Part shown: positions 42,438 to 57,011 of the stretch, in pieces
Layout: each line of letters opens with the position of its first letter
Position numbering within the stretch: position 1 is the stretch's first letter
From: Pseudomonadota bacterium
GTDB taxonomy: Bacteria > Pseudomonadota > Alphaproteobacteria > GCA-2746255
Assembly (NCBI GenBank): GCA_040752895.1
Contig: JBFMHN010000001.1
Span: 163,213-227,212, forward strand
Length of the DNA: 64,000 bases
Reading direction: 5' to 3'
Notes under the pieces: generated by a model
The model's input: the letters and a program-made list of their open reading frames with translations, nothing else
Databases searched by the model: none
What the model was told of the DNA's origin: nothing
Program-made: the position numbers and the translations under genes

Positions 42438-44393
42438 TTACGCGACTCCGGCAAGCGCCGAAACGGGCATGGCTTTCTCCCTCGTCTCGCGTAGCGTAAG
42501 GCGTTCGACCGCCGCTTCCAGAATCATGCGCAAAAGATCCGCATAGCGAATCCCGCCGAATTCCGCCATCAGGTTGAGTTTTCCGTCCCAGCACCAGCCG
42601 GGATTCGGGTTTACTTCCAAGAGCTTGATCGTGCCGTGCGCGTCGGCGCGGAAGTCGAAGCGGGCGTAGTCCCGGCAGCCCAAACGCTCGAAAAGTTGCA
42701 TCGAAGCATCGACGATCAACCGCGCCTTTTCCGGTTTGAGTTTTGCCTCTTGGTAGCGAATATCCTTCCAGTAGGGCGAATCGGGAAGCCACTTCGATTC
42801 GTAACCAAGGATACGCGGCAGGTTTGGATCGAGGCGGCTATAATCGACTTCGAGAACGGGAAGTGCCTGCAACTCCTGCCCGCTGTTGCCGATGATGCCG
42901 ACGCTGTATTCCGACCCGGTAAGGAACTCCTGGGCGAGAACCGAACGGCCGGGCAGCGTTTCCTTGAGGCGTATGAGATAGGAGACAAGCTGTTCCGGCG
43001 TATAGACGACGGAGTCCTGCACGATGCCGATGCTGCTATCACCCAAATTCGGCTTCAGGATCGCCGGGAAAACAGAAGGCATCGTCGCCGACTGGTCTTC
43101 CGGCCTCATGTAGGTCTCAAGCGGCACCGGGATGTCGAGCGCGGCGGCTATGCATCGGACGAGCGCCTTGTCGTAACACATGGCGAGGCAGGCCGGTCCG
43201 GCACCGGTGTAAGGGATATCGAGCATCTCGAGGAGCGCTGGTACGTGCAGCTCTTGCAGCGCGTCGTTGTTGAAGCCCTCGTCACAGAGATTGAAGACGA
43301 AGTTCGGCTGGTCCTTCTCGAGGTCCACGTGAAGGGTGGCGTGGTTGTTGATGTAGTTGAACGCATATCCATGAAGCTCGGAAAGAGCGTCTTTCAGGCG
43401 CTGAACCGTGTCCATGTCTTCCGGATTGAACTGGCCGGCCTTCTTTACGGAGTCCGGAAGGCGGTGGTCGCCCATCACGACGGTGACTTTTCGGATGATC
43501 TTGCCGCGAATGGGTTTTGGATCTTTTTGCGGCGCGCTCGCTATCAGGAAAAAGCGCTTGGCCATCATGCCGAGATCTTGGTTTTGGGTGGATTCCGCCT
43601 CAAGCGTGGCGTGGGTACGAACGTTCTGGAAGCCAACGCGTTTCAAGACTTCGAGAATGCGCTCCTGGGAATAGAGGCGTTCGGCATAGAATTGGTCGGC
43701 GATAACGCCGCGTTCGGCGTGGACGACGACTTCGCGGGAGACAAGTCGGTCGCCGTCGGCGGTCAACGACCGTTCGCGGCAAACGAAATGGTTGCCGTCA
43801 ATCCATTCCCAGGATCGGCGTTCGAGGTTCTTGCGCATCCAGTCGCCGTCCGTCAGGTCGAGCGCAATCGTGCCGTGGGACCGCAGGGCCTCCTTCACGG
43901 TCTCCAGCACCCGGATGTCGTCTTCTTCGTTGTCGAAGTAGCCGAAGGAATTTCCCATCAGCATGACGGCGTCGAAATTGCCGTTCTTCGAGCGGAAGGT
44001 CCGGGCGTCGCCTTCGTGGAAGGTGACCTTGAGGCTCGTCTTCATCGCCCGTCGGCGGGCGAGGCGAATGAGGTAGCGCGAACGGTCCACACCGACGACG
44101 TTCTCAAAGCCGCGGCGGGCAAGCTCCAGCGAATGCCGGCCTTGGCCGCAGCAGAAATCCAGGATCCGATCGGTCGGGCGCAGGGCCGTTGCCCGCAGCA
44201 GAATGTCCACCTCGCGGATGGTGTTGGCGTCGTTCTCGACGACGTCGCCGTCCGTTCGCAAATAAAGCGAATCAAAAAGGTCGCGCCACCATTCCTGGGG
44301 AAGGTGGCTGGCTAGGTCGGCCACCGGGCCGAGAAAGGCCCTGGACCGTGGTTTGGGAGAATTGGCTTTCGTGGAGGCAGTCGGTTTCGTCAT
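42438..44393 (-). CDS. Fusion protein: class I SAM-dependent methyltransferase (N-terminal) plus D-Ala-D-Ala-ligase-family ATP-grasp enzyme (C-terminal)
   Basis: MTase motif I ILDFCCGQGRHSLELARRGFENVVGVDRS. The C-terminal Ddl-like N-domain and ATP-grasp carry NFVFNLCDEGFNNDALQELHVPALLEMLDIPYTGAGPACLAMCYDKALV, ILKPNLGDSSIGI and KLLEVNPNPGW. Confidence 0.7.
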   Translation of the reverse strand: MTKPTASTKANSPKPRSRAFLGPVADLASHLPQEWWRDLFDSLYLRTDGDVVENDANTIREVDILLRATALRPTDRILDFCCGQGRHSLELARRGFENVVGVDRSRYLIRLARRRAMKTSLKVTFHEGDARTFRSKNGNFDAVMLMGNSFGYFDNEEDDIRVLETVKEALRSHGTIALDLTDGDWMRKNLERRSWEWIDGNHFVCRERSLTADGDRLVSREVVVHAERGVIADQFYAERLYSQERILEVLKRVGFQNVRTHATLEAESTQNQDLGMMAKRFFLIASAPQKDPKPIRGKIIRKVTVVMGDHRLPDSVKKAGQFNPEDMDTVQRLKDALSELHGYAFNYINNHATLHVDLEKDQPNFVFNLCDEGFNNDALQELHVPALLEMLDIPYTGAGPACLAMCYDKALVRCIAAALDIPVPLETYMRPEDQSATMPSVFPAILKPNLGDSSIGIVQDSVVYTPEQLVSYLIRLKETLPGRSVLAQEFLTGSEYSVGIIGNSGQELQALPVLEVDYSRLDPNLPRILGYESKWLPDSPYWKDIRYQEAKLKPEKARLIVDASMQLFERLGCRDYARFDFRADAHGTIKLLEVNPNPGWCWDGKLNLMAEFGGIRYADLLRMILEAAVERLTLRETREKAMPVSALAGVA

Positions 44394-45040: not shown

Positions 45041-45874
45041 CTAGCTCGCCTCGCGCTGGATCCGTTCCGCGAAGTCGCGGAGATAGCAAAGCCCCTGGAT
45101 GGCGCGCGAGCCATACCAGGAAGTCATCTCGCCATCGATCCGGGCAAGCCTGACCCCTTCGCAGGCAAACCGTGCCCGGAAGGCTTCTACGTCCGCGGGT
45201 GTGAAGGCGTAAGGCTCGCTTGGGAAAAGAACAAGGTCGGTCTCCTTCAGGCAAACCCTGCTGATTTCGATGGTGGGGTAGCGTTCCGGTCCTTCGTTGC
45301 CGACCGTTTGCCAGTGGAGAAGGGCCAGGGTTGCCGCGATATAGGTGTCGCGGGCGACCGTCATCCAGGGGTCCTGCCAGATGAGGTAAAGAACCTTTCG
45401 GTTTGGCCAGTCTTCGGCCGCCGCCGCCAGTTCCGCATAGGCTTCGAGGAAGCGGGCGGACAACCTTTCCGCTTCCGCCTCCCGGTCGAAAAGGCTTCCC
45501 ATCAGGCGATAGAGAGGAAGGTTGTCGAGGGGCGCAAGCGGGTGCGTCACGATTACCTCGATGCCGGCTTCTGCGATCGCCTCCGCCATTGCTCTGGGGT
45601 TTTCATCCACGTTGACGATCGCATGGCTCGGCCGCAGCTCCTGCAAACGTTCCATCCGGATTTTCTTCGTACCGCCAAGGCTCGGCACGCGTGCGACCCC
45701 TTCTTTCGGATGGATGCAGTAATGGGTGCGCCCGACGATATGGTTGCCTAAGCCCAGATCAAACAGCAATTCCGTGACGCTTGGCACCAGCGAAACGATG
45801 CGCGCGTTTCCCTTGGCCGGCGCGTGAATGACGCCGCCGGCGTCCCTCCGGGTTTCTTCGGCCGCTATCGCCAT
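45041..45874 (-). CDS. TroA/BtuF-like periplasmic-binding-fold protein (Peripla_BP_2) without a detectable signal peptide
   Basis: ...RIVSLVPSVTELLFDLGLGNHIVGRTHYC...VIVTHP... is the class III SBP fold. ATG at 45874. The N-terminus MAIAAEETRRDAGG is not hydrophobic. Overlaps the GDPD gene by 10 nt. Confidence 0.5.
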   Translation of the reverse strand: MAIAAEETRRDAGGVIHAPAKGNARIVSLVPSVTELLFDLGLGNHIVGRTHYCIHPKEGVARVPSLGGTKKIRMERLQELRPSHAIVNVDENPRAMAEAIAEAGIEVIVTHPLAPLDNLPLYRLMGSLFDREAEAERLSARFLEAYAELAAAAEDWPNRKVLYLIWQDPWMTVARDTYIAATLALLHWQTVGNEGPERYPTIEISRVCLKETDLVLFPSEPYAFTPADVEAFRARFACEGVRLARIDGEMTSWYGSRAIQGLCYLRDFAERIQREAS

Positions 45875-46608
45875 CGCTCCGGCTCCGGGTAGTCCGTGAA
45901 AATGGCGTTGACGCCCCAGCCGCGCAGCACCCTCGCGCGTTCCGGGTCGTTCACGGTGTAGGCGAGTACGGCGTAGCCGCCGGCAAGCAGAAATTCGGTT
46001 TTGGCCTTGGTCAGCAGGTCGGCGTTCGGATGGACGGAAACGCAGCCCGAGGCCCGTTCGGCCAGGACCACCTCGTTCGGCACGTCCCGCACGATGAGGC
46101 CGCGCGGAAAGTCCGGCACGACAAGGGCGGCTTTGCGAAGGATCCGTGGCTGGCTTGCCGAGATCAAGGGCGGTGGTTTCGCGTTTGGCCAGAGATCTTG
46201 GAGAAGGGTGACGACAGCCTCCGCAACGGCTTCTTCTCTCTCCGCTTCGGCCTTGATCTCGACGTTTGCGAACAGGCCTCGCTCGGTGCAAAGGGCGACG
46301 AACGCGGCCAGTGTCGGCACCCGTTCACCGGCGAACTCGGGCGCGAACCAGGCGCCGGCGTCGAGGGCCGCGACCGTTTCGTAGGAGGTTTCGGCGACCT
46401 TGCCGCGGCCGTTCGTCGTTCGATCGAGGGTGGCGTCGTGGAGAAGGACAAGCTCGCCTGTTGCCGTCTGTCGGACGTCCACCTCGACCCAATGTGCGCC
46501 AAGATCGGCGGCGCGGCGAATGGCGGCGAGCGTGTTTTCAGGCGCGCTTCCGCTGGCGCCGCGATGGGCAATCACCGGATTGAGCCAGGGCAGGGGGCCT
46601 TGGGGCAT
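45865..46608 (-). CDS. ugpQ: Glycerophosphodiester phosphodiesterase
   Basis: VIAHRGASGSAPENTLAAIRRAADLGAHWVEVDVRQTATGELVLLHD is the GDPD motif. Confidence 0.8.
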   Translation of the reverse strand: MPQGPLPWLNPVIAHRGASGSAPENTLAAIRRAADLGAHWVEVDVRQTATGELVLLHDATLDRTTNGRGKVAETSYETVAALDAGAWFAPEFAGERVPTLAAFVALCTERGLFANVEIKAEAEREEAVAEAVVTLLQDLWPNAKPPPLISASQPRILRKAALVVPDFPRGLIVRDVPNEVVLAERASGCVSVHPNADLLTKAKTEFLLAGGYAVLAYTVNDPERARVLRGWGVNAIFTDYPEPERWR

Positions 46609-46689: not shown

Positions 46690-47979
46690 TTACGCCGAGG
46701 CCGCCTCGCGGCCCAGTTCACCGAAGAAAGCCCCCTCCAGGTTGGCGCCGGTGATCGTCGTCTTGACCAGAACGACGTTTCGCAAATCGGCACCGCGCAG
46801 ATCGGCCTGGCTCAGGTTGGCGCCCGTTAAATCCGCTCCCTGTAGGCAGGCGTCGAGGAGGGAAGCGCGGCTCAAATTCGTTGGCCAGATGCGGCCCGTG
46901 GAAGTGCCGTTCGGGTCCCGAAGCTCGACCGGGAAAAGCCGGGCGCGGCGAAGATTGGTGCCGCTCAGATCCGTTTCCGAAAGATTGGCGCCGGCCAGCA
47001 TGCACCCTTCCAGGTTAGCACCCTGCATGGCCGCACCGGAAAAATCGGTCAGCTCGAAAAGGCTGTCGCGCAGATTGGTTTCCGAAAGGTTGGCCCCCTT
47101 GAGGCTGGCGCCGCTTAGGTCCAGGCCGGAGAGGTTGAGCCAGCTCAAGTCATACCCGTCCAGCACGGCCTGCTCGCCTTTCGCCCCACGTGTCGCGATC
47201 CATTTCTTATGGGAGAGAAGAATGGCCTCGACCGTCTTTTGTCGCAGTTCTGGCGCCGAGGGAAGTTTTGCCTTGTGAAGCTTGGCGAGGGACAGCGGAA
47301 CGTCCACAATTTTGGCCGTTTCGAGATTGGCGTTCGTGAAGTTTGTCCCCATCACGTGTGTCTTGACGAGTATGGCGTTGCTCAGGTTGCAATTCGCAAG
47401 GTTGGTGCTTTCGAGGTTCGCGCTGGAAAGGTTTGCCTGGGTCAGGTTGGCGCCTTGAAGATCCGCGTTTTGAAGCCGGACCCCGATCAGGTTGGCGCTT
47501 TGAAGGTCTGCGCCGACGGCCGAGCACCCCTTCATGTCGGCGCGCGTCAGATTGGCGCCTCTTAGAATGGCCTCGTCCAGAACGGAATGACCAAGATTGC
47601 TGCCGACGATCTGCCAGCTGCCTTTCTCGCCCACGACGGCGAGGCGGCCTTCTCTCAAGTCGGCCTTTTCCAGCGTGGCACCACTCAGGTCGGCCTTGTA
47701 AAGATTAACGCCGTGCATGTCGGCGCTTTTAAGATTTGCGTTTTTCAGGACCGAACCGGAAAATTCCGCCGCGTACAGATCCGCTCTTTCGAAATTGGCG
47801 TCGGTCAGGTTGCAGTTTTTCAGATTCGCGCCGTTCAGGCTGGCCCGGCTTAAATTCACGCTCGAAAGGTCAAGGCCGGAAAGGTCGACTTTCGACAACT
47901 CGGCTCGCTTGCCGTCCGTCTTGCCCTGCAGCCATTTCTCGTGTTTCTGGATAAGCCCCAGGATTTCATGCGGAGTCAT
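46690..47979 (-). CDS. Pentapeptide-repeat protein, paralogue 1
   Basis: 429 aa. Two modules, each opening with hhxxHxKWlxxxGxxGxxAxLxGxDLS (MTPHEILGLIQKHEKWLQGKTDGKRAELSKVDLS and LLSHKKWIATRGAKGEQAVLDGYDLS). Each is followed by long A(D/N)LxG pentapeptide runs. Confidence 0.75.
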   Translation of the reverse strand: MTPHEILGLIQKHEKWLQGKTDGKRAELSKVDLSGLDLSSVNLSRASLNGANLKNCNLTDANFERADLYAAEFSGSVLKNANLKSADMHGVNLYKADLSGATLEKADLREGRLAVVGEKGSWQIVGSNLGHSVLDEAILRGANLTRADMKGCSAVGADLQSANLIGVRLQNADLQGANLTQANLSSANLESTNLANCNLSNAILVKTHVMGTNFTNANLETAKIVDVPLSLAKLHKAKLPSAPELRQKTVEAILLSHKKWIATRGAKGEQAVLDGYDLSWLNLSGLDLSGASLKGANLSETNLRDSLFELTDFSGAAMQGANLEGCMLAGANLSETDLSGTNLRRARLFPVELRDPNGTSTGRIWPTNLSRASLLDACLQGADLTGANLSQADLRGADLRNVVLVKTTITGANLEGAFFGELGREAASA

Positions 47980-48081
47980 GTTGGTCCCCCTTCGAGGGCG
48001 AGGCGGAAGGGTTTTTCCTTTGCCGTCCCCTTAAAATACGAATGATCTCCCGGCCGGAGATCGGGAAATTGGCTCTGCCGG

Positions 48082-49380
48082 TCATGGGGCAGTCCCGCCG
48101 ATCGGGATAGCCGCCAGTGTCGTGCATTCAAGGATCGCCCGCGTGAAAATCGTGTTCTTCAGGTCCGCTCCGCGGAAATCGGCCTGGGTCAGATTCGCGG
48201 CCGTGAAATCGGTCTCGGTAAGACGGGCATCGGTCAACGTTGCCCGGGTAAGGTTGGAAGGCCAAAGCCGCCCGGTTCGTTCGCCCAGCGCGCTCCGGAT
48301 CTCGACCGGGACAAGCCGGGCCTTGGCAAGGTTGGCCCCCTTCAGGTCGGCGCCCGTCAGATTGGCGCCGGCGAGAAGCGCGCCTTTCAGGTCCGCGTTC
48401 CGAAGGTTGGCGTAAGAGAGATCGGCCAGTTCGAAGACGCCACGCCGAAGGTCCGCCCCGGTGAAATTGGTTCCCTTGAGGCTGGCGCCGCTTAGCTTGA
48501 CACCGGCAAGGTTTTGATTGCTGAGATCGAGGCCGTCGAGGATGGCCCGTTTGCCGGTTTTGCCATGGCTTTTGATCCACTGCAGATGGCTCTCAAAAAT
48601 CGACTCGAGCGATCCGGCCCGTTTTGCGAGCGAAGGCGGTAATTTTGCCCCGTGCAGGCCCACGGATCCGAGTATCGTATTCCTGAGATCGGCGGTGTCG
48701 AGGACCGCGTTGGAAAAATCCGCACCCGTCGCATCTGTCTGCCGAAGGGACGCACCGGAGAAATTTCCGCCGGAAAAATTTCCGCCCGTCAGCCCGGCGT
48801 TGGTGAGATTTGCGTCGTTCAACTTGGCGCCCCGCCAGTCCGCGTTTTCGATCTGGGCGTTGACCAGGGTGGCGCCCGTGAAGTCGCCGTCTTTGGCCGA
48901 ACTTCTCCGGAGGTCGGCGCCGGTCAGGTTGGCACCCATCAGCTCGGCCTCGTCCAGATTCGAATCCGAAAGGTCGACAGAAATAGCGATGGCCTTCCAA
49001 TCGTCCGATTCGCCCCAGACGGCGACGCGGCCTTCCCGCAGGTTCGCGCCTACCAGCTTGGCCCGCTTCAAGGTGGCCTTGTGCAGGTTGGCGCCTTGCA
49101 GGTCGGCGCCGGTGAAGTCCGCGTGCACGAGGTTCGCAAGCGAGAGGTCCGCCGTTGCCAGGCGGGCATTCGATAGGTTGGCGCCGTTCAGGTTACTGCG
49201 TTGAAGGATGGCGCCGCTCATTTCGGCCTGGCTCAAATTCGTATAGGAAAGATCCGCGCCGATGAGGTTGAGCCTGGCCAGGTTCGCCTGCTGGCCGCCG
49301 CTCTTGCCCTCGAGCCACCGTTCGTGCTTTCGAAGCAACCTTAAAATATCCTTAGGCAACATGGCCGACTCTCTCGACAA
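48082..49380 (-). CDS. Pentapeptide-repeat protein, paralogue 2
   Basis: 432 aa with the same two-module layout (MLPKDILRLLRKHERWLEGKSGGQQANLARLNLIGADLS and FESHLQWIKSHGKTGKRAILDGLDLS). The start is probably 49362. Confidence 0.75.
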   Translation of the reverse strand: MSRESAMLPKDILRLLRKHERWLEGKSGGQQANLARLNLIGADLSYTNLSQAEMSGAILQRSNLNGANLSNARLATADLSLANLVHADFTGADLQGANLHKATLKRAKLVGANLREGRVAVWGESDDWKAIAISVDLSDSNLDEAELMGANLTGADLRRSSAKDGDFTGATLVNAQIENADWRGAKLNDANLTNAGLTGGNFSGGNFSGASLRQTDATGADFSNAVLDTADLRNTILGSVGLHGAKLPPSLAKRAGSLESIFESHLQWIKSHGKTGKRAILDGLDLSNQNLAGVKLSGASLKGTNFTGADLRRGVFELADLSYANLRNADLKGALLAGANLTGADLKGANLAKARLVPVEIRSALGERTGRLWPSNLTRATLTDARLTETDFTAANLTQADFRGADLKNTIFTRAILECTTLAAIPIGGTAP

Positions 49381-49600
49381 GCGCTTTCGTTGCGCGGAGG
49401 TAATCGCTTTTTTCGAAATGCTATAAGATCAAATTGCCTAAGTATTTCAATAAGTTTCGATTCGGATTCGCCTGAAATTTTGTCAAATTTTGTCTAAAAT
49501 TTTTCCGATCCAGCGCAGCCGCGAGATAGCGGCGCTTTATGTGAAAGCCGGTTCGGTCGTTAAGAAAGATTAGCGAGGTAGGGGAAGGGGCGGCTCTCGG

Positions 49601-51007
49601 TCAGGCGGGCCGTTTTGCGGTTTCCGCAACGCTTTCCTCGATGACGCCGTTGAAGGGCAGGACGCCTTTGAACAGGACGCCTTCCAAATTAGCGCCCTCG
49701 ACGATGGCGTCGATCATAATGGCGTTCTGAAGGTCTGCCCAGCGCAGGTCCGCGTTGCTGAAGTTCGCCGACGTCAGGTCGGCGTCGGCCAGGCACGCAT
49801 CCAGAAGGGTCGCCCGGGTAAGATTGGCCGGCCACCAGCGGCCCGTCGTCTTTCCTCTCTGATCGAGAAGTTCCACCGGCACGAGGCGGCTCTTGCAAAG
49901 ATTGGCGCCGGTCAAATCCGCCTCCATGAAGTTCGTTCCGGCCAGATGGCTGCCCTCGAGGTTGGCGCCTTGAAGAATGGCGCCGCCGAGGTCGGCAAGT
50001 TCGAACCGGCACCCGTGGAGGTCCGCCTCGGTCAGGTCGGCCCCCTTCAGGCTGGCGCCGCTGAAATCCGTGCCGGCGAAGGTTTTGTTGCTGAGGTCAT
50101 AGCCGTCCAGATTGGCCCGCTCGCCCTCGCGTCCACGGCTTTCGATCCAGCGCAGATGTTCCTCCAGAACCGTCTTAAGGGGCTTGCTCGCTTTCTGGGG
50201 TTCGGTCGGAAGCTTCGCCTCGGACATGTTTGCCAAGGCCATGGGAACGTCCGTCAGGTTCGTTGTCGTAAGGTTGGCGTTTGTAAAATTGGCCCCCGTC
50301 ACATGTGCCTTGACGAGGTTGGCGCCGTCGAAATTGCAGCCGGAGAGATTGGTGTCTCCGAGATTGGAGCTGGCCATGTTCGCTTTCGTCAAATTTGCGC
50401 CCTGAAGGTTTGCGTTCTGAAGCTTGACGCCGATCAGCTTGGCACCGCTAAGATCGGCGCCGACGGCCGTGCAGCCCTTCATGTTGGCGCGTGTTAGATT
50501 AGCGCCCTTCAGGATCGCGTCGTTCAGGATGGATTGACCAAGATTGCTGCCGACGGTTTTCCAGGTGCCGCGTTGCCGCGCATCGATGAGGCGGCCTTCC
50601 CTTAAATCCGCCTTTTCAAGATCCGCACCCGTCAAATCCGCCTTGTAGAGATTGGCGCCATGCAAATCGGCGCTCTTGAGGTTGGCGTTCTTCAGGATCG
50701 ACAGCGAAAGGTCCGATGCGTAGAGGTCCGCTTTTTCAAGGTTGGCGCCGCTCAGGTTGCAGTTCTTGAGAATGGCGCCGTTCATACGGGCCTTGGCGAG
50801 GTTGGCAAAGGAAAGATCCAGCCCGGAAAGGTCCAGCGCGGAAAGGTTGGCCCGCTCGCCATCCGCTTTGCCGGCTAGCCACCTCTCGTGCTTCCGAAGA
50901 AGCCGAATGATTTCATAAGGTGTCAAAAGAGCACCTGCCGATCCAAGCCTCGCGTGCCGTTTTTCATCCCACAGGGAAAAATGCACCAGCCTAGTTTGAT
51001 ACGCCAT
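49601..51007 (-). CDS. Pentapeptide-repeat protein, paralogue 3
   Basis: Same layout (LTPYEIIRLLRKHERWLAGKADGERANLSALDLS and LEEHLRWIESRGREGERANLDGYDLS). The annotated ATG gives a 27-aa N-terminal extension absent from the paralogues. A TTG at 50926 preceded by AGGTG would give an MTPYEII... start. Confidence 0.7.
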   Translation of the reverse strand: MAYQTRLVHFSLWDEKRHARLGSAGALLTPYEIIRLLRKHERWLAGKADGERANLSALDLSGLDLSFANLAKARMNGAILKNCNLSGANLEKADLYASDLSLSILKNANLKSADLHGANLYKADLTGADLEKADLREGRLIDARQRGTWKTVGSNLGQSILNDAILKGANLTRANMKGCTAVGADLSGAKLIGVKLQNANLQGANLTKANMASSNLGDTNLSGCNFDGANLVKAHVTGANFTNANLTTTNLTDVPMALANMSEAKLPTEPQKASKPLKTVLEEHLRWIESRGREGERANLDGYDLSNKTFAGTDFSGASLKGADLTEADLHGCRFELADLGGAILQGANLEGSHLAGTNFMEADLTGANLCKSRLVPVELLDQRGKTTGRWWPANLTRATLLDACLADADLTSANFSNADLRWADLQNAIMIDAIVEGANLEGVLFKGVLPFNGVIEESVAETAKRPA

Positions 51008-51139
51008 GGCCTGTTAAGGAAGGACTAAGAAAACCAAAGACGCAGAAACGCCGGGAAGGGGACCCCAATTCCCGCCGCCTTTGCTTCACCGCGTCTTTCC
51101 GGTTGAGCGTCGCCCGAAACTTCGCTAGGGTTTCCTTCG

Positions 51140-51325
51140 ACGGTTCCCCCATTTGGGGATGAGAAAGGGAACACGGTGCGACCCGATGGGTTCATGCCGT
51201 GGCTGCCCCCGCAACTGTATGCGGAAGATGCGTCCAAGAAAGCCACTGGGAAACTGGGAAGGCTGGACGCGAACGCTAAATCCGCAAGCCAGGAGACCTG
51301 CCGTCGAATGTCACCACCGTTGGGC
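51140..51325 (+). promoter_or_regulatory. Cobalamin (AdoCbl) riboswitch
   Basis: ...gagaaagggaacacggtgcgacccgatgggttcatgccgtggctgcccccgcaactgta... then gccactgggaaactgggaaggc... and the B12 box aagccaggagacctgccg. Lies upstream of a TonB-dependent receptor. Confidence 0.8.
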
Positions 51326-51633
51326 GGGGTTGTTCCGGCGGCTGCGGGTTTCCGTAGACGGTGACATGGCTTCGTAAGAAGGATGTTGTCGGCTGCGGAG
51401 GGTCCCATTCGATGTTTTTTTCCGACGGCTTAATCTCTCGCGGGCGAGGGCGGTTGCTCTTGCGCGCCATCTCTTCTTCGTCACAGTTCTTCGGGGGCAG
51501 CAAACCTACCGTCCGCTTGTCCGTCACGGCATCGATCGCCGGGCGGGTGGAAAGAAGCGGAAGAACCCGGGCGCCTGATCGGGCCGGGTTCTCCCGTGAA
51601 CGGGAAATCCCATTCACACAGACGGAGTCTGCA

Positions 51634-53646
51634 ATGCCCACTTCAGTAAAAAGTTTTCTTGCGCCGAACTTCTTCCTACGCCTGAAACGCGGGACGGTTT
51701 TATTTCTCCTTTCTTCTCTGACCTTCCTGCCGCTGCCCGCCTTTTCGGCGGAGGGCGAGGAGGGGAAAGAGCCGGCCACGTCGACGCTTCCCGAGGTCGT
51801 CGTTACCGCCACGCGCATTGCAACACCCAGGGAGCAGGTTGCCTCCTCGATCACCGTGATCACGGCGGACGAGATCGCGCGTCGGCAATACCGCGTGATT
51901 GAAGACGCCCTGCGCTCCGTGTCGAGCTTGAGCGTCGTTCGCAACGGCGGCCCCGGTAAGAACACGGCGGTCTTTAGCCGAGGCAGCAGCGCAAACCATA
52001 CGCTCGTCCTGCTCGACGGGATTGAGATGAACGATCCCAGCACGCCGGACGGCCGGATGAATTTTGCCGGTCTTCCGATCGAGGATGTCGAGCGGATCGA
52101 GGTTCTGCATGGGCCACAGGGCACTCTCTATGGTTCGGACGCGATCGGTGCCGTCGTCAACATCATCACGAAAAAAGGCTCGGGCGCGCCGACAGCGACG
52201 CTGAGCCTGGAAGGCGGCTCCTTCGACACTTTCCGCCAGATGTTAAATCTGCGCGGCGGGGAAAAGCTCTTCGATTACTCCGTCACTTTCCAGGGCGTTA
52301 CGACCGACGGCGTCTCCGTCGCGCCGGCCCGTTTTACGCCGGCCGGAAGCGTGAAGGACAAGGACGGCTATGACAATCAGACCGTTTCCGCCAATCTGGG
52401 CATCACGCCGAACGAGATCCTCGCGTTCCGCTTCACGGGCCGCTTCACGGATCTTCGGAATGACCTCGACCTCAACGTCTTTCCCATCCAGGCGGACAAC
52501 GACAGCCACGACGAAGAGGATCGCCTTTTCCTGGGCGGGGAGGCTTCCCTCTCGCTTTTCGAGGGCCGCAGCGAGCACCGCCTCGCCGCGACCTACACGG
52601 ACTATAACCGGATCGTTCGGGACGATCCGGACGCCTTCAACCCGTTCGATTTCTTGCGCAGCAAAGCGGTCGGCGAGAAGCTGAAATTCGAGATCCAGAA
52701 CGACTTCCGCTTCGTCGAAAACCATGTCCTGACGCTTGGCCTGGAGACCGAGGAAGAAAAAATCAAAACAAGCACGGATTCCGATAGCCTGTTCGGTCCG
52801 TTTACGTCCGCGGCCAAGGCGGACGTGCAGACGAACGCGGTCTATCTTCAGGACCAGTTTGCTTATCGCGACCGTTTCTTCGGGACGCTTGGCGTCCGGT
52901 TGGACGATCCCGACAGCTTCGGCTCGGAAACCACCTATCGCATAGCGCCCGCCTACCTGCACCGCGAGACGGGCACGAAAGTTCGCGGCGCCTATGCGAA
53001 AGGCTTCAAGGCTCCCGCCTTGTTCCAGCTTTTCGGTTCCTCGATCTCCGGCTTCGGCGTCTTTTCCGGCAACCCGAATCTGAAGCCCGAAGTCAGCCGG
53101 GGCTGGGAGATAGGTTTTGACCAAGGTCTCTTCGACCGGCGTCTGACCGTCGGCGTCACCTATTACGAGAACGACATCAAGAACCTGATCGAAGGCACTG
53201 CCACGACAAACCTGAACATCGGCAAGGCCGAGACGAAGGGGGTTGAGGTAACCGCCACGGCAAAGCTTCTCGAAAACCTCGACCTCGATGCGCGCTATGC
53301 TTATACGCGGGCGGAGAACAGCACGACCGGACAGGAACTTCTGCGCCGGCCCTTGCACAAGGCGGGTTTTGACTTTGCTTACCGGCCGATCACGGAACTC
53401 CGGCTCAACCTTGGCGGAACCTATATCGGCCGCCGCCATGACATCGACGCCCTTACCTTCGGACGCGTCAAGGGCGCCGGCTACTTCCTGGCCGATGTCG
53501 CCGCCACATACGACGTGGCGGAAGGGTGGCAGGCTTTCGGCCGGCTCGAGAACGCCTTCAGCCACAAAGTCGAAGACCCGGACGGTTTCGGGCAGCCGGG
53601 CTTTGCTTTCTTCCTGGGGCTGAAGAGGTCTCTGGAGATTTTCTGA
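51634..53646 (+). CDS. btuB: TonB-dependent outer-membrane receptor (cobalamin/BtuB-type)
   Basis: Signal peptide MPTSVKSFLAPNFFLRLKRGTVLFLLSSLTFLPLPAFSA, a TonB box TLPEVVVTATR, plug and 22-strand barrel, and a C-terminal aromatic residue. Controlled by the B12 riboswitch. Confidence 0.8.
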   Translation: MPTSVKSFLAPNFFLRLKRGTVLFLLSSLTFLPLPAFSAEGEEGKEPATSTLPEVVVTATRIATPREQVASSITVITADEIARRQYRVIEDALRSVSSLSVVRNGGPGKNTAVFSRGSSANHTLVLLDGIEMNDPSTPDGRMNFAGLPIEDVERIEVLHGPQGTLYGSDAIGAVVNIITKKGSGAPTATLSLEGGSFDTFRQMLNLRGGEKLFDYSVTFQGVTTDGVSVAPARFTPAGSVKDKDGYDNQTVSANLGITPNEILAFRFTGRFTDLRNDLDLNVFPIQADNDSHDEEDRLFLGGEASLSLFEGRSEHRLAATYTDYNRIVRDDPDAFNPFDFLRSKAVGEKLKFEIQNDFRFVENHVLTLGLETEEEKIKTSTDSDSLFGPFTSAAKADVQTNAVYLQDQFAYRDRFFGTLGVRLDDPDSFGSETTYRIAPAYLHRETGTKVRGAYAKGFKAPALFQLFGSSISGFGVFSGNPNLKPEVSRGWEIGFDQGLFDRRLTVGVTYYENDIKNLIEGTATTNLNIGKAETKGVEVTATAKLLENLDLDARYAYTRAENSTTGQELLRRPLHKAGFDFAYRPITELRLNLGGTYIGRRHDIDALTFGRVKGAGYFLADVAATYDVAEGWQAFGRLENAFSHKVEDPDGFGQPGFAFFLGLKRSLEIF

Positions 53647-54476
53647 TGTTTCGATGGGGCGGTGCGTTCCTGGTTGTCGCTTTTGTCGGGGGGTTCCTCG
53701 CTCATGCGGCGGAAGCGCGGCCGGAACGCATCGTCTCCATCAATCTTTGCGCGGATCAACTGCTGCTTCTTCTGGTCGAGCCTTCGCGTATTCGCTCCTT
53801 GAGTTACTACGCCCTCGACCCCGAAGAATCTTATTTTGCCGAGCGGGCGAAGCCCTTTCCCATCAACCATGTGACGGCGGACGAGGTGCTGGCGTTCGAG
53901 CCGGATATCGTCCTGGCCGGCTCCTATACGAGTCGTTCGACGGTTGATCTTTTGAAACGAAGAGGAGTTCACGTTGTCGAGCTTCCGGTGCCGACAACGC
54001 TTACCGAGGTGCGCGCGCAATTTCTGGAGGTGGCGGAACTTCTGGACGCCCGACCGAAAGCCGAGGGCTTGCTTGCCGAAATGACCGAACGGCTGGAGGC
54101 CGTTTCCGCCCGTGTCAAGAATACGCAAAAACCGTTGGCGGCGGTTTATTTCGCGAACGGGCTGACGGCCGGCAAAGGGACGCTCATGGACGACGTCATG
54201 CGCGTGGCTGGCATCGAAAACCTGGCCGGTCGTTTGGGTATCGAAGGCTATGGCAGTCTTTCCCTTGAACGCCTGCTGGTGAGCCAGCCGGACATGATCA
54301 TTCTCGGCCAGCTCTCGCCGGAGAGTCCTTCCCTTGCCCGCTTGGTGCTGGAGCATCCCGCCTTCCGGCTGTTGCACGCGCACGCGAAGACGGTGGCGGT
54401 GCCGCGCCGCTTGTGGACGTGCTGGGGGCCCTTTACGGCGGAATGGGTCGAGCGCCTGGCGGAGGCGCGGCCATGA
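53646..54476 (+). CDS. btuF: Periplasmic substrate-binding protein (BtuF/FecB-like, class III)
   Basis: Signal peptide MFRWGGAFLVVAFVGGFLAHAAEA. RIVSINLCADQLLLLL... is the Peripla_BP_2 fold. The ATG overlaps the btuB stop. Confidence 0.7.
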   Translation: MFRWGGAFLVVAFVGGFLAHAAEARPERIVSINLCADQLLLLLVEPSRIRSLSYYALDPEESYFAERAKPFPINHVTADEVLAFEPDIVLAGSYTSRSTVDLLKRRGVHVVELPVPTTLTEVRAQFLEVAELLDARPKAEGLLAEMTERLEAVSARVKNTQKPLAAVYFANGLTAGKGTLMDDVMRVAGIENLAGRLGIEGYGSLSLERLLVSQPDMIILGQLSPESPSLARLVLEHPAFRLLHAHAKTVAVPRRLWTCWGPFTAEWVERLAEARP

Positions 54477-55504
54477 TGGGTATGCCAGCACCCGGAAAAA
54501 CGGTCGGCAAGGCCGCGTCGCTTTTTCCGCTGGCGGGCGGGCTTTTCCTTCTCCTCCTGGTTCTTGCCGCGCTCTCCCTTTCCCTCGGCAAGGTGGACGT
54601 ACCGTTGCGGGAAGCGATCCAAGGGCTGTTCGCGGAGGACCCGCCGCTCACCTCCGTCCTGCTTTTCGAAATCCGTCTGCCGCGTACGATCCTTGCGATC
54701 CTTGTCGGCGGCAGCCTGGGCCTTTGCGGGGCGGCGTTGCAGGGGCTTCTTCGCAATCCGCTGGCCGAGCCGGGCCTGATCGGGATTTCCAGCAGCGCCG
54801 CCTTGGGTGCCGTCTGCATGCTTTATTTTGGGTATGCGCAAGTCTTTCCGTTGGCGTTGCCGATGGGCGGCATCGCGGGCGCGCTTGTCGTCGTCTTTCT
54901 TCTCTATGGGATAGCGGGCCGCGATGCCAGCATCCTGACTTTGATCCTCGCAGGGGTCGCCATCAGCAGTTTTGCCGCGGCATTGACGTCGCTTGCCTTG
55001 AATCTGGCGCCCAGCCCCTATGCCGCCTACGAGATCGTGTTCTGGCTTCTTGGCTCACTCGCTGACCGCAGTTTCGATCACGTGATGCTGGTGGCGCCTT
55101 TGATGTTCCTGGGGTGGGTCTTGCTGATGAGTACGGGCCGCGCGCTCGATGCGCTTTCGCTTGGCGAGGAAACGGCGTCGACGCTTGGCTTTCATCTTCC
55201 GCGGGTGCGCTTTGCCGTCATCGTCGGCACGGCGCTTGCCGTCGGCGCGGCCGTTGCCGTGACCGGCGGCATCGCTTTCATCGGCCTTGTCGTGCCGCAT
55301 TTGCTGCGTCCACTCGTCGGTCATCAGCCGAGCCGGCTTTTGGGCATCAGCGCACTCGGGGGTGCGGTTCTTTTGCTGGCCGGCGATATTGCGGTGCGCG
55401 TTTTTTCGCCGGGGCTTGAACTCAAGCTCGGCGTGCTGACAGCGGTGATCGGGGCCCCCTTCTTCCTGTATCTCATCCTCAAGACCCGGAGGGAGATGCG
55501 ATGA
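54473..55504 (+). CDS. btuC: FecCD-family ABC permease
   Basis: Polytopic FecCD/BtuC-like (ILAILVGGSLGLCGAALQGLLRNPLAEPGLIGISS). Confidence 0.8.
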   Translation: MMGMPAPGKTVGKAASLFPLAGGLFLLLLVLAALSLSLGKVDVPLREAIQGLFAEDPPLTSVLLFEIRLPRTILAILVGGSLGLCGAALQGLLRNPLAEPGLIGISSSAALGAVCMLYFGYAQVFPLALPMGGIAGALVVVFLLYGIAGRDASILTLILAGVAISSFAAALTSLALNLAPSPYAAYEIVFWLLGSLADRSFDHVMLVAPLMFLGWVLLMSTGRALDALSLGEETASTLGFHLPRVRFAVIVGTALAVGAAVAVTGGIAFIGLVVPHLLRPLVGHQPSRLLGISALGGAVLLLAGDIAVRVFSPGLELKLGVLTAVIGAPFFLYLILKTRREMR

Positions 55505-56298
55505 GCCTGGTCGAGGCAGAGGCGCTCACGGTTCGCTTCCGCGATCATACCGTTCTCGATGGGACTGGTTTGGCGGCGGCGAAAGGCGAATTGATCGGCC
55601 TCATCGGCGAGAACGGCGCCGGCAAGACAACGCTGCTGCGCGTTCTTGCCGACCTTCAGCCGACGGAGAAGGGCGAGGTACGCTTCGCCGGCGATCCGCT
55701 CGGCCGCATCCCGAAACGCGTCTATGCCCGCCAGATGGCCTATCTTCCCCAGGCCGCTTCCAGCCACTGGCCGCTCGAGGTTCGCCACCTCGTGGCCCTT
55801 GGCAGGCTTCCCCACCGGAACCCGTGGCAGCGGCTGGCCACCGCCGATTTCGAACGTGTCGAGGCAGTCCTTCGCTGGACGGATACGCTGCACCTTGCCG
55901 CCCGCACGGTGACGACGCTTTCAGGCGGCGAGCGCGTGCGCGTCATGCTGGCCCGGGCGCTTGCTTCCGAGCCGAAACTCTTGCTTGCCGATGAGCCGGT
56001 CGCCTCCCTCGATCCCTATCACCAACTTCAGGTCATGGAGCTTCTCCGCGAGGTTGCAAAACGGGGCGCCGCCGTCCTCGTCGTTCTTCACGACCTCACG
56101 CTTGCGGCACGCTTTTGCGACCGGCTTTTGCTGCTGCATGCGGGCAAGGTCTTGGCGGAAGGCTCGCCGGCAAACGTGCTGACGCCGGCGAATCTGGAAA
56201 GGGCTTATGCGATCACCGCCGAGTTCGGCGAGCGCGAAGGCGAGCGCTACCTGCTGCCCTGGCGGCGGCTGGATCGAAAGCCCGGCGCGGCGGAGTGA
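55501..56298 (+). CDS. btuD: ABC transporter ATP-binding protein (BtuD/FecE-like)
   Basis: Walker A GENGAGKTT, signature LSGGERVRV, Walker B LLLADEP. Confidence 0.85.
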   Translation: MSLVEAEALTVRFRDHTVLDGTGLAAAKGELIGLIGENGAGKTTLLRVLADLQPTEKGEVRFAGDPLGRIPKRVYARQMAYLPQAASSHWPLEVRHLVALGRLPHRNPWQRLATADFERVEAVLRWTDTLHLAARTVTTLSGGERVRVMLARALASEPKLLLADEPVASLDPYHQLQVMELLREVAKRGAAVLVVLHDLTLAARFCDRLLLLHAGKVLAEGSPANVLTPANLERAYAITAEFGEREGERYLLPWRRLDRKPGAAE

Positions 56299-56303
56299 AG
56301 CCG

Positions 56304-57011
56304 ATGACGATCCCGCCGGTGCGCCTCGCCGCTTACGTCTTTTCGGCGGCTGTTCATGCCAGCATCGTCGGTGCTGCGCTGCTGGTGTCTGGCGATGCCC
56401 CGCCACGGATGACCGACGTGGCGGGATTCGAAGTCGAGGTCGTGGTCGAACTGCCTGGAGGGCTTTTGGAAAACGCTGCCGAGGACGCCTTCGATTCGGC
56501 GCCGTCGGAGGTGCGGGAAACTTCTCCGGACCGCGAAACAGAGGCAAAAGCGGAAGCGCACCCGCCTTTACGGGCGGCACCATCGGCAGCGCCGGCGCCT
56601 TCGGTCGAAGCGCCACTTTCGGAGCCGCCCGCCGAGGGCGAGCAGGGAGTCGAAACCGCGTCCTTGCCGGCGGAGTTCGTCCAGCCGGCCAGCGCGGCGG
56701 CGGCGAAACCGGCCGAGAAGGGGCCGAGCCTTGCCCCGAGGCCGCTTGCCAATCCGCGGCCCATCTATCCGAGGGAAGCGCGGCGGAGGGGCGTCGAGGG
56801 CCATGTATTGCTTCGTGTCGTAGTCGGCGAGAAGGGGATGAGCGAAGCCGTCACCCTGCTTGAGACGAGCGGCTATTCCGTCCTCGACGAGGCGGCGATC
56901 GCGGCCATCCGGAAATGGCGATTTGAGCCCGCCCGCCGCGGCGGCACGCCGATGACGGCAGCGATCGACGTTCCGGTCACTTTCCGGATCAACCGGGAAG
57001 AAGAAGAATAG
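56304..57011 (+). CDS. tonB: TonB-family energy transducer
   Basis: N-terminal TM anchor, a Pro/Ala/Glu-rich spacer, and a C-terminal TonB domain (PIYPREARRRGVEGHVLLRVVVGEKGMSEAVTLLETSGYSVLDEAAIAAIRKWRFEPA). Confidence 0.75.
   Translation: MTIPPVRLAAYVFSAAVHASIVGAALLVSGDAPPRMTDVAGFEVEVVVELPGGLLENAAEDAFDSAPSEVRETSPDRETEAKAEAHPPLRAAPSAAPAPSVEAPLSEPPAEGEQGVETASLPAEFVQPASAAAAKPAEKGPSLAPRPLANPRPIYPREARRRGVEGHVLLRVVVGEKGMSEAVTLLETSGYSVLDEAAIAAIRKWRFEPARRGGTPMTAAIDVPVTFRINREEEE

What the first reader, a model, noticed from the sequence alone, without database searches (positions are those of the whole stretch)
46690..51007. Tandem triplication of two-module pentapeptide-repeat proteins
Three adjacent minus-strand genes of 429, 432 and 468 aa are clearly paralogous. 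Each has two modules that open with a conserved non-repeat motif (hhxxH(E/K)xWLxxxGxxGxxAxLxGxDLS, for example LIQKHEKWLQGKTDGKRAELSKVDLS and LLSHKKWIATRGAKGEQAVLDGYDLS). Each module then continues with long A(D/N)LxG pentapeptide runs. None has a signal peptide. Intergenic gaps of about 100 and 220 bp, the latter AT-rich, suggest individually promoted genes. Pentapeptide-repeat proteins of the Qnr/MfpA type mimic DNA and protect topoisomerases. A triplicated, internally duplicated family with a conserved 'KHE-WL' head has no described function. Paralogue 3 probably has a mis-called start (TTG at 50926).
Basis: seen in the sequence. Interest (0 to 1): 0.6.

Follow-up and report, generated by a model that had tools for sequence, protein, structure and literature searches.

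The report
Three tandem two-domain pentapeptide-repeat genes
Three neighbouring genes encode diverged copies of a rod-shaped pentapeptide-repeat protein built from two capped beta-helix domains; the family is common in Alphaproteobacteria but unstudied, so this is a real lineage-specific gene expansion, not a new kind of system.

Summary
Three minus-strand genes (P1 46690-47979, P2 48082-49362, P3 49601-50926) are true paralogues, 46-61% identical in protein and 58-66% in DNA. The longest shared DNA run is 23 nt, so they are not an assembly artefact. Each is a strong Pfam Pentapeptide match (E about 1e-75). Each is modelled with high confidence (pLDDT 92-94) as two quadrilateral beta-helices, each opened by an alpha-helix and interrupted by one loop or hairpin. 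The "KHE-WL head" is the N-terminal capping helix known from other pentapeptide-repeat proteins. It is not a separate domain or a dimerisation element.

The two-module layout is not unique. About 90 of the 120 listed hits are 400-510 aa proteins with the same layout, several from Caulobacterales and Micavibrio; the six contexts examined held one copy each. The triplication is specific to a small clade of uncultured Alphaproteobacteria. It predates the split of four genomes. P1 and P3 are under purifying selection (dN/dS 0.13-0.21), while P2 is broken or lost in the three relatives.

Qnr, MfpA, HetL and secreted YjbI membership tests fail. Function is unknown. My best inference is a cytoplasmic partner-binding rod whose copies have diverged in specificity.

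The parts
46690..47979 (-). P1: 429-aa two-domain pentapeptide-repeat protein (net charge -3)
   Evidence: ORF. PF00805 E = 2e-76. AF2 model pLDDT 93.5. Orthologues in L002, L003 and L004 at 64-69% identity with dN/dS 0.13-0.21.
48082..49362 (-). P2: 426-aa paralogue, the most divergent copy (net charge +3). Likely start is ATG 49362; the longest ORF starts at TTG 49380.
   Evidence: AF2 pLDDT 92.4. Its orthologues are frameshifted (L002), frameshifted with two stops (L003) or absent (L004).
49601..50926 (-). P3: 441-aa paralogue (net charge -5). Likely start is TTG 50926, not ATG 51007.
   Evidence: The start is supported by a conserved AGGTG-type motif followed by the start codon in the orthologues and by the end of homology at 50926.
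47881..47979 (-). P1 head 1 (residues 1-33): capping alpha-helix 3-17, a Gly turn (D22-G23 here; G-G in P2 and in most family members) and the first repeats
   Evidence: DSSP helix 3-17 in the model. H13, G23 and A26 are invariant or nearly so in the family.
47194..47232 (-). P1 head 2: capping alpha-helix of module 2 (residues 250-262). The low-confidence linker at residues 244-246 lies just before it.
   Evidence: H257, W260, G265 and G268 are at least 98% conserved in the family.
47596..47646 (-). P1 module-1 hairpin insertion (residues about 112-128), directly after the family-invariant ADLREG motif (R109)
   Evidence: Strands 114-116 and 122-124. R109 is invariant in 93 sequences.
46882..46935 (-). 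P1 module-2 hairpin insertion (residues about 349-366: PVELRD...TGRIWP)
   Evidence: Strands 351-354 and 360-365. It aligns with the module-1 insertion.
49447..49468 (-). Conserved intergenic block AATCCGAATCGAAACTTATTGA upstream of P2; candidate promoter or operator
   Evidence: It is the only strongly conserved stretch of the P3-downstream spacer in four genomes, and L004 keeps it although P2 is absent there. It is unique in the window, with 0 matches expected by chance.
49505..49556 (-). Stem-loop just after the P3 stop codon (terminator-like)
   Evidence: -23.7 kcal/mol, z = -2.9 against shuffles. The consensus scan found a hairpin at the same place on the opposite strand.
48044..48062 (-). 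Terminator-like hairpin GATCTCCGGCCGGGAGATC plus a T-rich tail, between P2 and P1
   Evidence: The fold is -11.9 kcal/mol with z = -1.4, which is weak.

Best explanation
The locus is a lineage-specific tandem triplication of a chromosomal gene. The gene belongs to a widespread but uncharacterised alphaproteobacterial family of about 420-aa cytoplasmic pentapeptide-repeat proteins.

Shown:
- Each protein consists of two right-handed quadrilateral beta-helix (Rfr) domains joined by a short flexible linker.
G-x-x-G) and interrupted once by a protruding loop or hairpin.
- The two-domain unit arose by an old internal duplication that the whole family shares.
- Two later gene duplications (P2 first, then P1/P3) happened before four related genomes diverged.
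- P1 and P3 are kept under purifying selection. P2 is intact here but broken or lost in the relatives.

Inferred:
- Like other pentapeptide-repeat proteins, these act as rigid binding rods with no enzymatic activity.
- They engage a partner protein or nucleoprotein through the outward-facing side chains of the helix faces and through the loop that follows the invariant ADLREG motif.
- The three copies have diverged in surface charge (module charges +1/-3, -3/+6, +5/-10). They have also replaced several surface Arg/Asp residues that are otherwise near-invariant. I read this as a shift towards different partners or conditions (sub- or neo-functionalisation).
- Each gene probably has its own promoter and terminator.

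Confidence is about 0.9 for the identity and evolutionary history and about 0.4 for the binding-rod mechanism. The partner is unknown.
For: - Fold and family: PF00805 E about 1e-75 for all three. AF2 pLDDT is 93.5 (P1) and 92.4 (P2), with helix 3-17, beta-coils, an insertion at about 112-128, a low-confidence linker (P1 residues 244-246), a second helix at about 250-262, and beta-coils with a hairpin at about 350-366. The best Foldseek PDB hits are HetL, designed beta1 solenoids, Np275/276, QnrB1, MfpA and AlbG.
- Cap helix is a known feature: PMC8145042.
- Family breadth: 90 of the 120 listed hits are 400-510 aa with a second HxxW..G..G head at about residue 257. R109 is invariant, and H13, G23, D87, G90, D107, G111, H257, W260, G265 and G268 are nearly invariant.
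- Copy number elsewhere: the six family members whose contexts were examined each show one listed pentapeptide gene, among unrelated housekeeping neighbours.
- History: orthologue groups and the P3-P2-P1 order are conserved in L002-L004. The NJ tree gives ((P1,P3),P2).
- Selection: dN/dS is 0.13-0.21 for P1 and P3 and 0.25 for P2.
- Location: no signal peptide or transmembrane segment.
- Charges.
- Separate units: hairpins after P3 and P2 and a conserved block upstream of P2.
Against: No partner, phenotype or expression data exist for any family member that I could find. No gene neighbour is conserved across lineages to point to a partner. The relative orientation of the two domains is uncertain (pTM 0.63-0.67). 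The charge differences could be neutral drift. Loss or decay of P2 in all three relatives shows that at least one copy is dispensable. The promoter and terminator assignments rest on weak consensus or folding signals; the P2-P1 hairpin has z of only -1.4.
Confidence: 0.55

Rival explanations
1. They are topoisomerase-directed DNA mimics of the Qnr/MfpA/AlbG type. The two-domain chain would act as a single-chain counterpart of the Qnr dimer that binds gyrase or topoisomerase IV, and the loops would play the role of Qnr loops A and B. The three copies would serve different enzymes or states.
For: QnrB1, MfpA, AlbG and EfsQnr are significant structural matches. Each module is about Qnr-sized, at roughly 7-10 coils with one protruding loop, and loops are essential in Qnr. 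The proteins are cytoplasmic. The Micavibrio-type family members lie one or two genes from mutL.
Against: NCBIfam Qnr scores are 91-97 bits against a cut-off of 240, and MfpA scores are 82-86 against 360. The modules are linked head-to-tail, not as a C-terminal-helix-mediated two-fold dimer. Net charge is -3, +3 and -5, and P2 has pI 8.9, so there is no pronounced acidic surface. No mfpB-like GTPase or toxin-biosynthesis neighbour is present. Every pentapeptide-repeat protein hits these PDB entries, so the fold match is not specific.
Confidence: 0.15
2. They are functionally tied to the adjacent cobalamin-uptake locus, for example as regulators of TonB-dependent receptor expression or envelope state. 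This would be analogous in outcome to Caulobacter YjbI/PerA.
For: In all four genomes the array sits between the divergent cobalamin riboswitch-btuB-btuF operon and ugpQ. A Caulobacter pentapeptide-repeat protein controls the TonB-dependent receptor proteome (PMC12864828). A Caulobacter 'hypothetical protein with pentapeptide repeats', CCNA_02342, is co-repressed with TonB-dependent receptors by the sRNA RusT (PMC11005374). Whether it is an orthologue was not verified.
Against: The four genomes are close relatives, so shared synteny is expected by descent. None of the six other family members examined has such neighbours. The genes are transcribed divergently from the riboswitch operon, and L003 and L004 have two unrelated genes in between. 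YjbI is 183 aa, Sec-secreted and has Cys pairs, and none of this applies here.
Confidence: 0.08
3. They are effectors exported by a non-Sec route (type I, III, IV or VI secretion) that act on another cell. A diversifying tandem effector family would be expected in a small-genome, possibly predatory or host-associated alphaproteobacterium.
For: Pentapeptide-repeat effectors exist, such as PipB, PipB2 and SopA/NleL; partial NCBIfam and PDB matches appear. One relative has a chromosome of only 2.1 Mb. Micavibrio carries family members. Tandem expansion with gain and loss is typical of effectors.
Against: Scores are well below the PipB and PipB2 cut-offs. No secretion-system genes lie in the neighbourhood. 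Free-living Caulobacterales keep the family in a stable housekeeping context. dN/dS of 0.13-0.21 shows no sign of diversifying selection.
Confidence: 0.07
4. The array is redundant duplicated DNA on its way to decay, or an assembly artefact, and three copies have no distinct function.
For: The P2 orthologue is frameshifted in L002, frameshifted with two stops in L003 and missing in L004. The L002 P3 orthologue has one in-frame stop.
Against: All three window genes are intact. P1 and P2 were modelled and give pLDDT above 92. DNA identity between copies is only 58-66%, which excludes an artefact. P1 and P3 are intact in nearly all relatives with dN/dS 0.13-0.21. The same array was assembled independently in four genomes.
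Confidence: 0.05

Closest known systems
Uncharacterised alphaproteobacterial two-domain pentapeptide-repeat proteins of about 410-440 aa, annotated only as 'pentapeptide repeat-containing protein' or 'YjbI with pentapeptide repeats' (e.g. Brevundimonas WP_292091296.1, Phenylobacterium WP_329653277.1, Micavibrio MFN3826622.1)
   Same: Same length. Same two modules, each with a capping helix and one insertion. Same invariant or near-invariant residues: H13, G23, D87, G90, D107, R109, G111, H257, W260, G265, G268. Alignments cover the full length (95-100%).
   Different: Identity is only 29-36%. The window clade has replaced otherwise at least 90% conserved surface residues: R85, R89, R279, D317, D327 and R329 in all three copies, and R319 in P1 and P3. 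It carries three tandem copies, whereas the six other family contexts examined show one. Some family members add a C-terminal PilZ domain or a kinase domain.
HetL (Nostoc PCC 7120, PDB 3DU1)
   Same: It is the best structural hit. It is a cytoplasmic Rfr beta-helix of about 10 coils with an N-terminal capping helix and loop insertions. The NCBIfam HetL profile gives the highest or second-highest score.
   Different: HetL has a single domain (237 aa in the crystal structure). Scores of 181-248 fall below the 260-bit cut-off and come from several partial stretches. HetL is cyanobacterial and acts in heterocyst patterning.
Qnr / MfpA / AlbG / McbG topoisomerase-protecting pentapeptide-repeat proteins
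   Same: Rfr fold, cytoplasmic location, functional loops protruding from the helix, and modules of similar size.
   Different: These are single-domain proteins that dimerise through C-terminal helices. They have acidic DNA-mimic surfaces and sit in characteristic operons or on plasmids. Profile scores here are far below the cut-offs, and charge is near neutral or basic.
Np275/Np276 (Nostoc punctiforme, PDB 2J8I/2J8K) and designed beta1 solenoids
   Same: Adjacent pentapeptide-repeat genes. An N-terminal capping helix whose sequence aligns with head 1: GEILRHYAAGKRNF against GLIQKHEKWLQGKTDGK.
   Different: These are tiny proteins (98 and 75 aa) thought to be a split single gene. They are not multi-domain paralogues.
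Caulobacter crescentus YjbI/PerA (CCNA_01968)
   Same: An alphaproteobacterial pentapeptide-repeat protein with a documented regulatory role linked to TonB-dependent receptors.
   Different: It is 183 aa, has a Sec signal peptide, is located in the outer membrane, and has Cys pairs at both ends. The window proteins have no signal peptide and two domains.

Membership tests
Pentapeptide-repeat protein superfamily (Pfam PF00805; Rfr fold) | At least eight contiguous A(D/N)LXX pentapeptides and a score above the Pfam gathering threshold | tested here: met
   241-251 bits against a 20.2 cut-off, with 8-10 matched stretches per protein. The five-residue register runs uninterrupted over four segments of P1.
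Pentapeptide-repeat protein superfamily (Pfam PF00805; Rfr fold) | Right-handed quadrilateral beta-helix | tested here: met
   Prediction only. AF2 pLDDT is 93.5 and 92.4 with one short strand every 5 residues. Foldseek gives probability 1.00 to solved pentapeptide-repeat proteins.
Alphaproteobacterial two-domain PRP family (unnamed) | About 400-510 aa, with two Rfr modules each preceded by a capping helix (second head HxxW..G..G near residue 257), and an ADLREG motif followed by an insertion in module 1 | tested here: met
   All three paralogues carry H13, G23, D/N107, R109, E110, G111, H257, W260, G265 and G268. Alignment to family members covers 95-100% of the length.
Qnr family (NCBIfam NF033086) | Profile score of at least 240 bits over a protein of about 211-218 aa | tested here: not met
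   91-97 bits in partial stretches.
Qnr / MfpA type | Single Rfr domain forming a two-fold dimer through a C-terminal alpha-helix | tested here: not met
   There are two domains in one chain. Only a 4-residue, low-confidence C-terminal helix appears in P1 and none in P2. The defining feature is taken from PMC8145042 and PMC10886550. Oligomeric state itself cannot be tested here.
Qnr / MfpA type | Predominantly electronegative, DNA-like surface | tested here: inconclusive
   Net charge is -3, +3 and -5, with pI 6.2, 8.9 and 5.8. Surface potential was not computed.
Qnr / MfpA type | Binds and protects or inhibits DNA gyrase or topoisomerase IV | not testable with these tools
   This needs biochemistry or MIC assays.
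MfpA (NCBIfam NF000349) | Profile score of at least 360 bits, and an operon with the mfpB-type GTPase | tested here: not met
   82-86 bits. The neighbours are the btuB operon, ugpQ and a periplasmic binding protein.
HetL (NCBIfam NF047416) | Profile score of at least 260 bits, full length | tested here: not met
   186, 181 and 248 bits, summed over 3-5 stretches.
Alr5209 family (NCBIfam NF052603) | Equivalog: about 129-aa single four-coil domain, score of at least 125 bits | tested here: not met
   The summed score (180-207 bits) formally passes. However, it is the sum of 5-7 partial matches of a 113-position profile along a protein more than three times longer. This is a repeat artefact, not an equivalog.
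Secreted YjbI/PerA-type PRP | N-terminal Sec signal peptide, about 183 aa, and Cys pairs flanking the helix | tested here: not met
   There is no hydrophobic N-terminal region. The proteins are 426-441 aa. Cys counts are 5, 1 and 6; whether any flank the helix ends was not examined. Family features are from PMC12864828.
PipB / PipB2 type III effectors (NF011744 / NF011743) | Profile score of at least 274 / 354 bits | tested here: not met
   124-141 / 112-154 bits.
Known anti-phage defence proteins (PADLOC) | Match to any PADLOC model | tested here: not met
   0 families at E <= 0.001.

The most novel reading that the evidence does not exclude
The family could be a single-chain, head-to-tail 'pseudo-dimer' version of the Qnr/MfpA DNA mimics that regulates topoisomerases or other DNA-tracking enzymes in Alphaproteobacteria. 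In that case the three diverged copies in this clade (one acidic, one basic, one mixed) would be tuned to different target enzymes or would assemble into heteromers. That would extend topoisomerase-directed pentapeptide-repeat proteins to a new architecture and to a large, unstudied chromosomal family.
Probability: 0.12. Interest if true: 0.6.

Novelty: new variant of a known kind. Interest (0 to 1): 0.3.

Why it matters
Pentapeptide-repeat proteins are very numerous: this query alone has 108,817 relatives at E <= 0.001. Yet only a handful have a known role. This locus draws attention to a coherent, widespread alphaproteobacterial sub-family. It has a fixed two-domain layout, an invariant ADLREG-plus-loop site, and members that appear to come from genera with culturable, genetically workable species (Caulobacter, Brevundimonas; the hits here are MAG proteins). 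No member has been studied.

The triplicated clade is a natural experiment. One copy (P2) is repeatedly lost and two are retained, and the copies differ in surface charge. This could guide partner-mapping experiments.

In itself the finding is a moderate curiosity. Tandem paralogues of repeat proteins are common, and nothing here points to a new mechanism.

Tried and rejected
- Assembly artefact or collapsed repeat: rejected. DNA identity is 58-66% and the longest identical run is 23 nt. The same array is present in three independent assemblies.
- Head motif as a separate annotated domain: Pfam and NCBIfam give only pentapeptide models. The models show a capping helix.
- Qnr, MfpA, HetL, PipB and YjbI membership: all fail.
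- Defence system: no PADLOC match.
- Guilt by association: six family members from other lineages were looked up. Synteny is only lineage-specific. Caulobacterales have His_Phos_1/dCMP deaminase - PRP - HSP20. Micavibrio-type genomes have lspA-DUF3035-M16-M16 - PRP - mutL. The PilZ-fused member lies next to bactofilin and murJ. Nothing is shared across lineages.
- The search for related loci with the 93-sequence alignment failed because no stretch was conserved enough. The rerun with the three paralogues found only three close relatives, plus generic pentapeptide-repeat proteins matched through a repeat pattern.
- The search of protein representatives was swamped by giant multi-repeat proteins. 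It returned no relative above about 36% identity over the full length, and it did not return the query's own cluster.
- Literature searches for PRP with Caulobacter, Alphaproteobacteria, PilZ or bactofilin, and for CCNA_02342, found no study of this family. [quoted passage not shown]
- The sigma-70 consensus scan gave no convincing promoter in the intergenic regions.

Full report
**1. The observation**

The three minus-strand ORFs exist exactly where stated: 46690-47979 (429 aa), 48082-49380 (432 aa) and 49601-51007 (468 aa). I call them P1, P2 and P3. All three are overwhelming matches to Pfam Pentapeptide (PF00805), with E = 2e-76, 4e-73 and 3e-74 and 8-10 matched stretches each.

They are paralogues. 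Protein identity is 61% for P1/P3, 46% for P1/P2 and 48% for P2/P3. At the DNA level they are only 58-66% identical, and the longest shared run is 23 nt. Third codon positions at conserved residues agree only about half the time. The gaps of 102 bp and 220 bp are as described, and the second is AT-rich (GC 0.46 against about 0.60 around it). No other pentapeptide-repeat gene lies in the window.

**2. Gene starts**

In three related genomes (section 5) every orthologue begins at (M)-[T/S]-P-[Y/H/K/Q]-[E/D]-I, with ATG, GTG or TTG placed 4-5 nt after an AGGTG or GGGTG motif. P3 in the window has the same arrangement at TTG 50926 (ggcAGGTGctctTTG). Upstream of that codon the orthologues share no similarity, and homology to relatives stops exactly at 50926. 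By the same comparison P2 most likely starts at ATG 49362 (MLPKDIL..., 426 aa) and not at TTG 49380.

**3. Anatomy**

AlphaFold2 models built on a 93-sequence family alignment are confident: P1 has pLDDT 93.5 and pTM 0.63, P2 has pLDDT 92.4 and pTM 0.67. Both show the same plan:
- an alpha-helix at residues 3-17;
- a beta-helix with one short strand every five residues;
- an insertion at about residues 112-128, which is a beta-hairpin in P1 and low-confidence in P2;
- more coils;
- a low-confidence linker (P1 residues 244-246; lower confidence around 240-250 in P2);
- a second alpha-helix at about residues 250-262;
- a second beta-helix interrupted by a hairpin at about residues 350-366.

The modest pTM reflects an undetermined orientation between the two domains.

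The six modules align with each other at 30-37% identity, and the helix and the insertion fall at equivalent positions. Module 1 is always closer to other module 1s, and module 2 to other module 2s. The internal duplication therefore predates the gene triplication.

N-terminal capping helices are documented for HetL, Np275, Alr5209 and PENT. Known pentapeptide-repeat dimers use C-terminal helices (PMC8145042; PMC10886550). The head of P1 even aligns with the cap of the Np275-derived designed solenoids. It is a structural cap, and nothing suggests a dimerisation device or a separately annotated domain.

None of the proteins has a signal-peptide-like or membrane-spanning stretch, so they are most likely cytoplasmic.

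**4. The family**

A search of 5.8 billion proteins with P1 gave no hit above 40% identity, and full-length hits reached only about 36%. However, 90 of the 120 listed hits are 400-510 aa proteins aligned over 95-100% of the query with a second HxxW..G..G head near residue 257. Where a source names them, they come from Caulobacter, Brevundimonas, Phenylobacterium, Micavibrio and unclassified Alphaproteobacteria. The names are only "pentapeptide repeat-containing protein" or "YjbI with pentapeptide repeats".

In the 93-sequence alignment R109 is invariant. H13, G23, D87, G90, D107, G111, H257, W260, G265, G268, D277 and G330 are at least 90% conserved. D87-x-R/H89-G90 and D107-x-R109-x-G111 lie exactly 20 residues apart, which is one coil. 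They therefore stack at one corner directly before the module-1 insertion. This makes that corner and the loop the best candidate functional site (inference).

A few members add a C-terminal PilZ domain (P0060, P0088, P0108, P0116), and P0014 carries protein-kinase Pfam domains listed ahead of its pentapeptide domains. This hints at signalling inputs in some lineages.

The exhaustive HMMER search found 108,817 pentapeptide-repeat relatives at E <= 0.001 but nothing closer over the full length. It was dominated by giant multi-repeat proteins.

**5. History of the triplication**

A scan of 185,579 species-representative genomes found only three close relatives, all uncultured "Alphaproteobacteria bacterium" MAGs:
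- L002 (JAGWAR010000003.1);
- L003 (OZ252220.1, a 2.1-Mb chromosome);
- L004 (JAJFGH010000160.1).

All share the window's synteny. A cobalamin riboswitch-TonB receptor-BtuF operon lies divergently upstream in all three, and a GDPD/UgpQ gene follows the array in L002 and L003; L004's contig ends within the second copy. The order P3-P2-P1 is conserved.

A neighbour-joining tree gives three orthologue groups with topology ((P1,P3),P2), nested within the wider family. Two duplications therefore preceded the divergence of the four genomes.

P1 and P3 orthologues give dN/dS of 0.13-0.21, with dS of about 0.8-1.5. These are real, constrained genes.

P2 behaves differently. Its orthologue is frameshifted in L002, frameshifted with two in-frame stops in L003, and absent in L004, where a P1-group copy directly follows P3. 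It is intact only in the window, with dN/dS 0.25 against the L002 remnant. The L002 P3 orthologue carries one in-frame stop inside the hairpin. Sequencing error cannot be excluded for single lesions.

The window clade has also replaced several surface residues that are at least 90% conserved elsewhere: R85, R89, R279, D317, D327 and R329 in all three copies, and R319 in P1 and P3. It is a divergent branch of the family.

**6. Transcription units (inferred)**

A stable stem-loop follows the P3 stop (49505-49556; -23.7 kcal/mol, z = -2.9). A hairpin with a T-rich tail lies between P2 and P1 (48044-48062), but support is weak (z = -1.4).

In the otherwise poorly conserved spacer after P3, one block (49447-49468, AATCCGAATCGAAACTTATTGA) is nearly invariant in all four genomes. 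It is retained in L004, where it precedes the P1-group gene. It is unique in the window.

**7. What it is not**

- NCBIfam scores for Qnr (91-97 against 240), MfpA (82-86 against 360), HetL (181-248 against 260) and PipB/PipB2 are all below the curated cut-offs.
- The one formal pass, Alr5209 family (180-207 against 125), is the sum of 5-7 partial matches of a 113-position profile along a protein more than three times longer. I treat it as a repeat artefact.
- Foldseek hits to HetL, Np275/276, QnrB1, MfpA and AlbG show the shared fold and nothing more.
- Net charges are -3, +3 and -5, and P2 has pI 8.9. These do not suggest a uniformly acidic DNA mimic.
- The modules are joined head-to-tail, unlike the tail-to-tail Qnr/MfpA dimer.
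- The recently characterised Caulobacter YjbI/PerA is 183 aa, Sec-secreted and flanked by Cys pairs (PMC12864828). It belongs to a different family.
- No PADLOC defence model matches.

**8. Function**

No gene neighbour is conserved across lineages. No paper in the searchable library addresses this family.

The best-supported reading is generic. These are rigid cytoplasmic binding rods that engage a partner through the helix faces and the ADLREG-adjacent loop. The three copies have diverged in surface properties (module charges +1/-3, -3/+6, +5/-10).

I rate the specific rivals as follows:
- Qnr-like topoisomerase regulator: about 0.15.
- Link to the adjacent B12-uptake locus: about 0.08.
- Non-Sec effector: about 0.07.
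- Redundancy or decay: about 0.05.

**9. Verdict**

The novelty is modest: this is a clade-specific tandem expansion, with ongoing loss of one copy, of a widespread but unstudied two-domain variant of a well-known repeat fold. It is worth a note as an entry point into that family, but it is not a surprising system.

Noticed in passing
window 51124-51319 (+), then 51361-57011 (+): A cobalamin riboswitch (114 bits) precedes a TonB-dependent receptor, a BtuF-like binding protein, a FecCD permease, an ABC ATPase and a TonB gene. This B12-uptake operon runs divergently from P3 and is conserved in L002-L004.
   Followed up: partly
window 49447-49468 (-); L002, L003 and L004 spacers (alignment A4): A near-invariant intergenic block AAT(C/T)CGAATCGAAA...TTGA lies downstream of P3. 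It contains a GANTC (CcrM) site, and its reverse complement CGATTCG fits the GcrA-type extended motif YGAKTCK as I recall it. This may indicate a cell-cycle- or methylation-dependent promoter. The motif match is from memory and was not tested.
   Followed up: partly
L003 6376-6945 (-) and 7071-7349 (+); L004 7263-7868 (-) and 7968-8171 (+): Two relatives carry two extra small genes between the riboswitch and the P3 orthologue: a lipoprotein-like protein of about 190-200 aa, and a Cys-rich protein of 67-92 aa containing ...KKGDCCVFCSYG.... The window lacks both; only about 200 nt separate the riboswitch and the P3 start.
   Followed up: no
L002 about 7770-7780, inside the P3 orthologue; L002 about 10000-10020 and L003 9260-10486 (P2 orthologues): There are in-frame stops and frameshifts in orthologues. 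The L002 P3 orthologue has a single stop inside the hairpin loop. The P2 orthologues are broken in two genomes and absent in L004. Sequencing error against true pseudogenisation was not resolved.
   Followed up: partly
L086 5455-7518: A family member with a C-terminal PilZ domain (P0088, 505 aa) lies directly downstream of a bactofilin gene and near murJ. This may link it to c-di-GMP or cell-envelope and cytoskeleton functions in that lineage.
   Followed up: no
L082 8001-11253; L085 6001-9964: In Micavibrio-type genomes the family member lies one or two genes upstream of mutL and downstream of two M16 peptidase genes. The synteny holds within that lineage only.
   Followed up: no
window 42438-44393 (-): A 651-aa fusion of an N-terminal SAM-methyltransferase domain with a C-terminal D-Ala-D-Ala-ligase-like ATP-grasp domain. 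This is an unusual architecture and was not examined further.
   Followed up: no
window 45041-45898 (-) and 45865-46608 (-): Downstream of P1 on the same strand lie a GDPD/UgpQ phosphodiesterase and a second Peripla_BP_2 (BtuF-like) binding protein. The latter was not detected downstream in L002 or L003.
   Followed up: partly
window 14819-14928 (-): A TPP riboswitch (61.6 bits, above the gathering score), unrelated to the finding.
   Followed up: no
(databases): Neither large protein search returned the query's own cluster or the 64-69% identical MAG proteins that the genome scan found. Near relatives seem to be missing from, or withheld by, those indexes, so 'best hit 36%' understates how many close relatives exist.
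   Followed up: no
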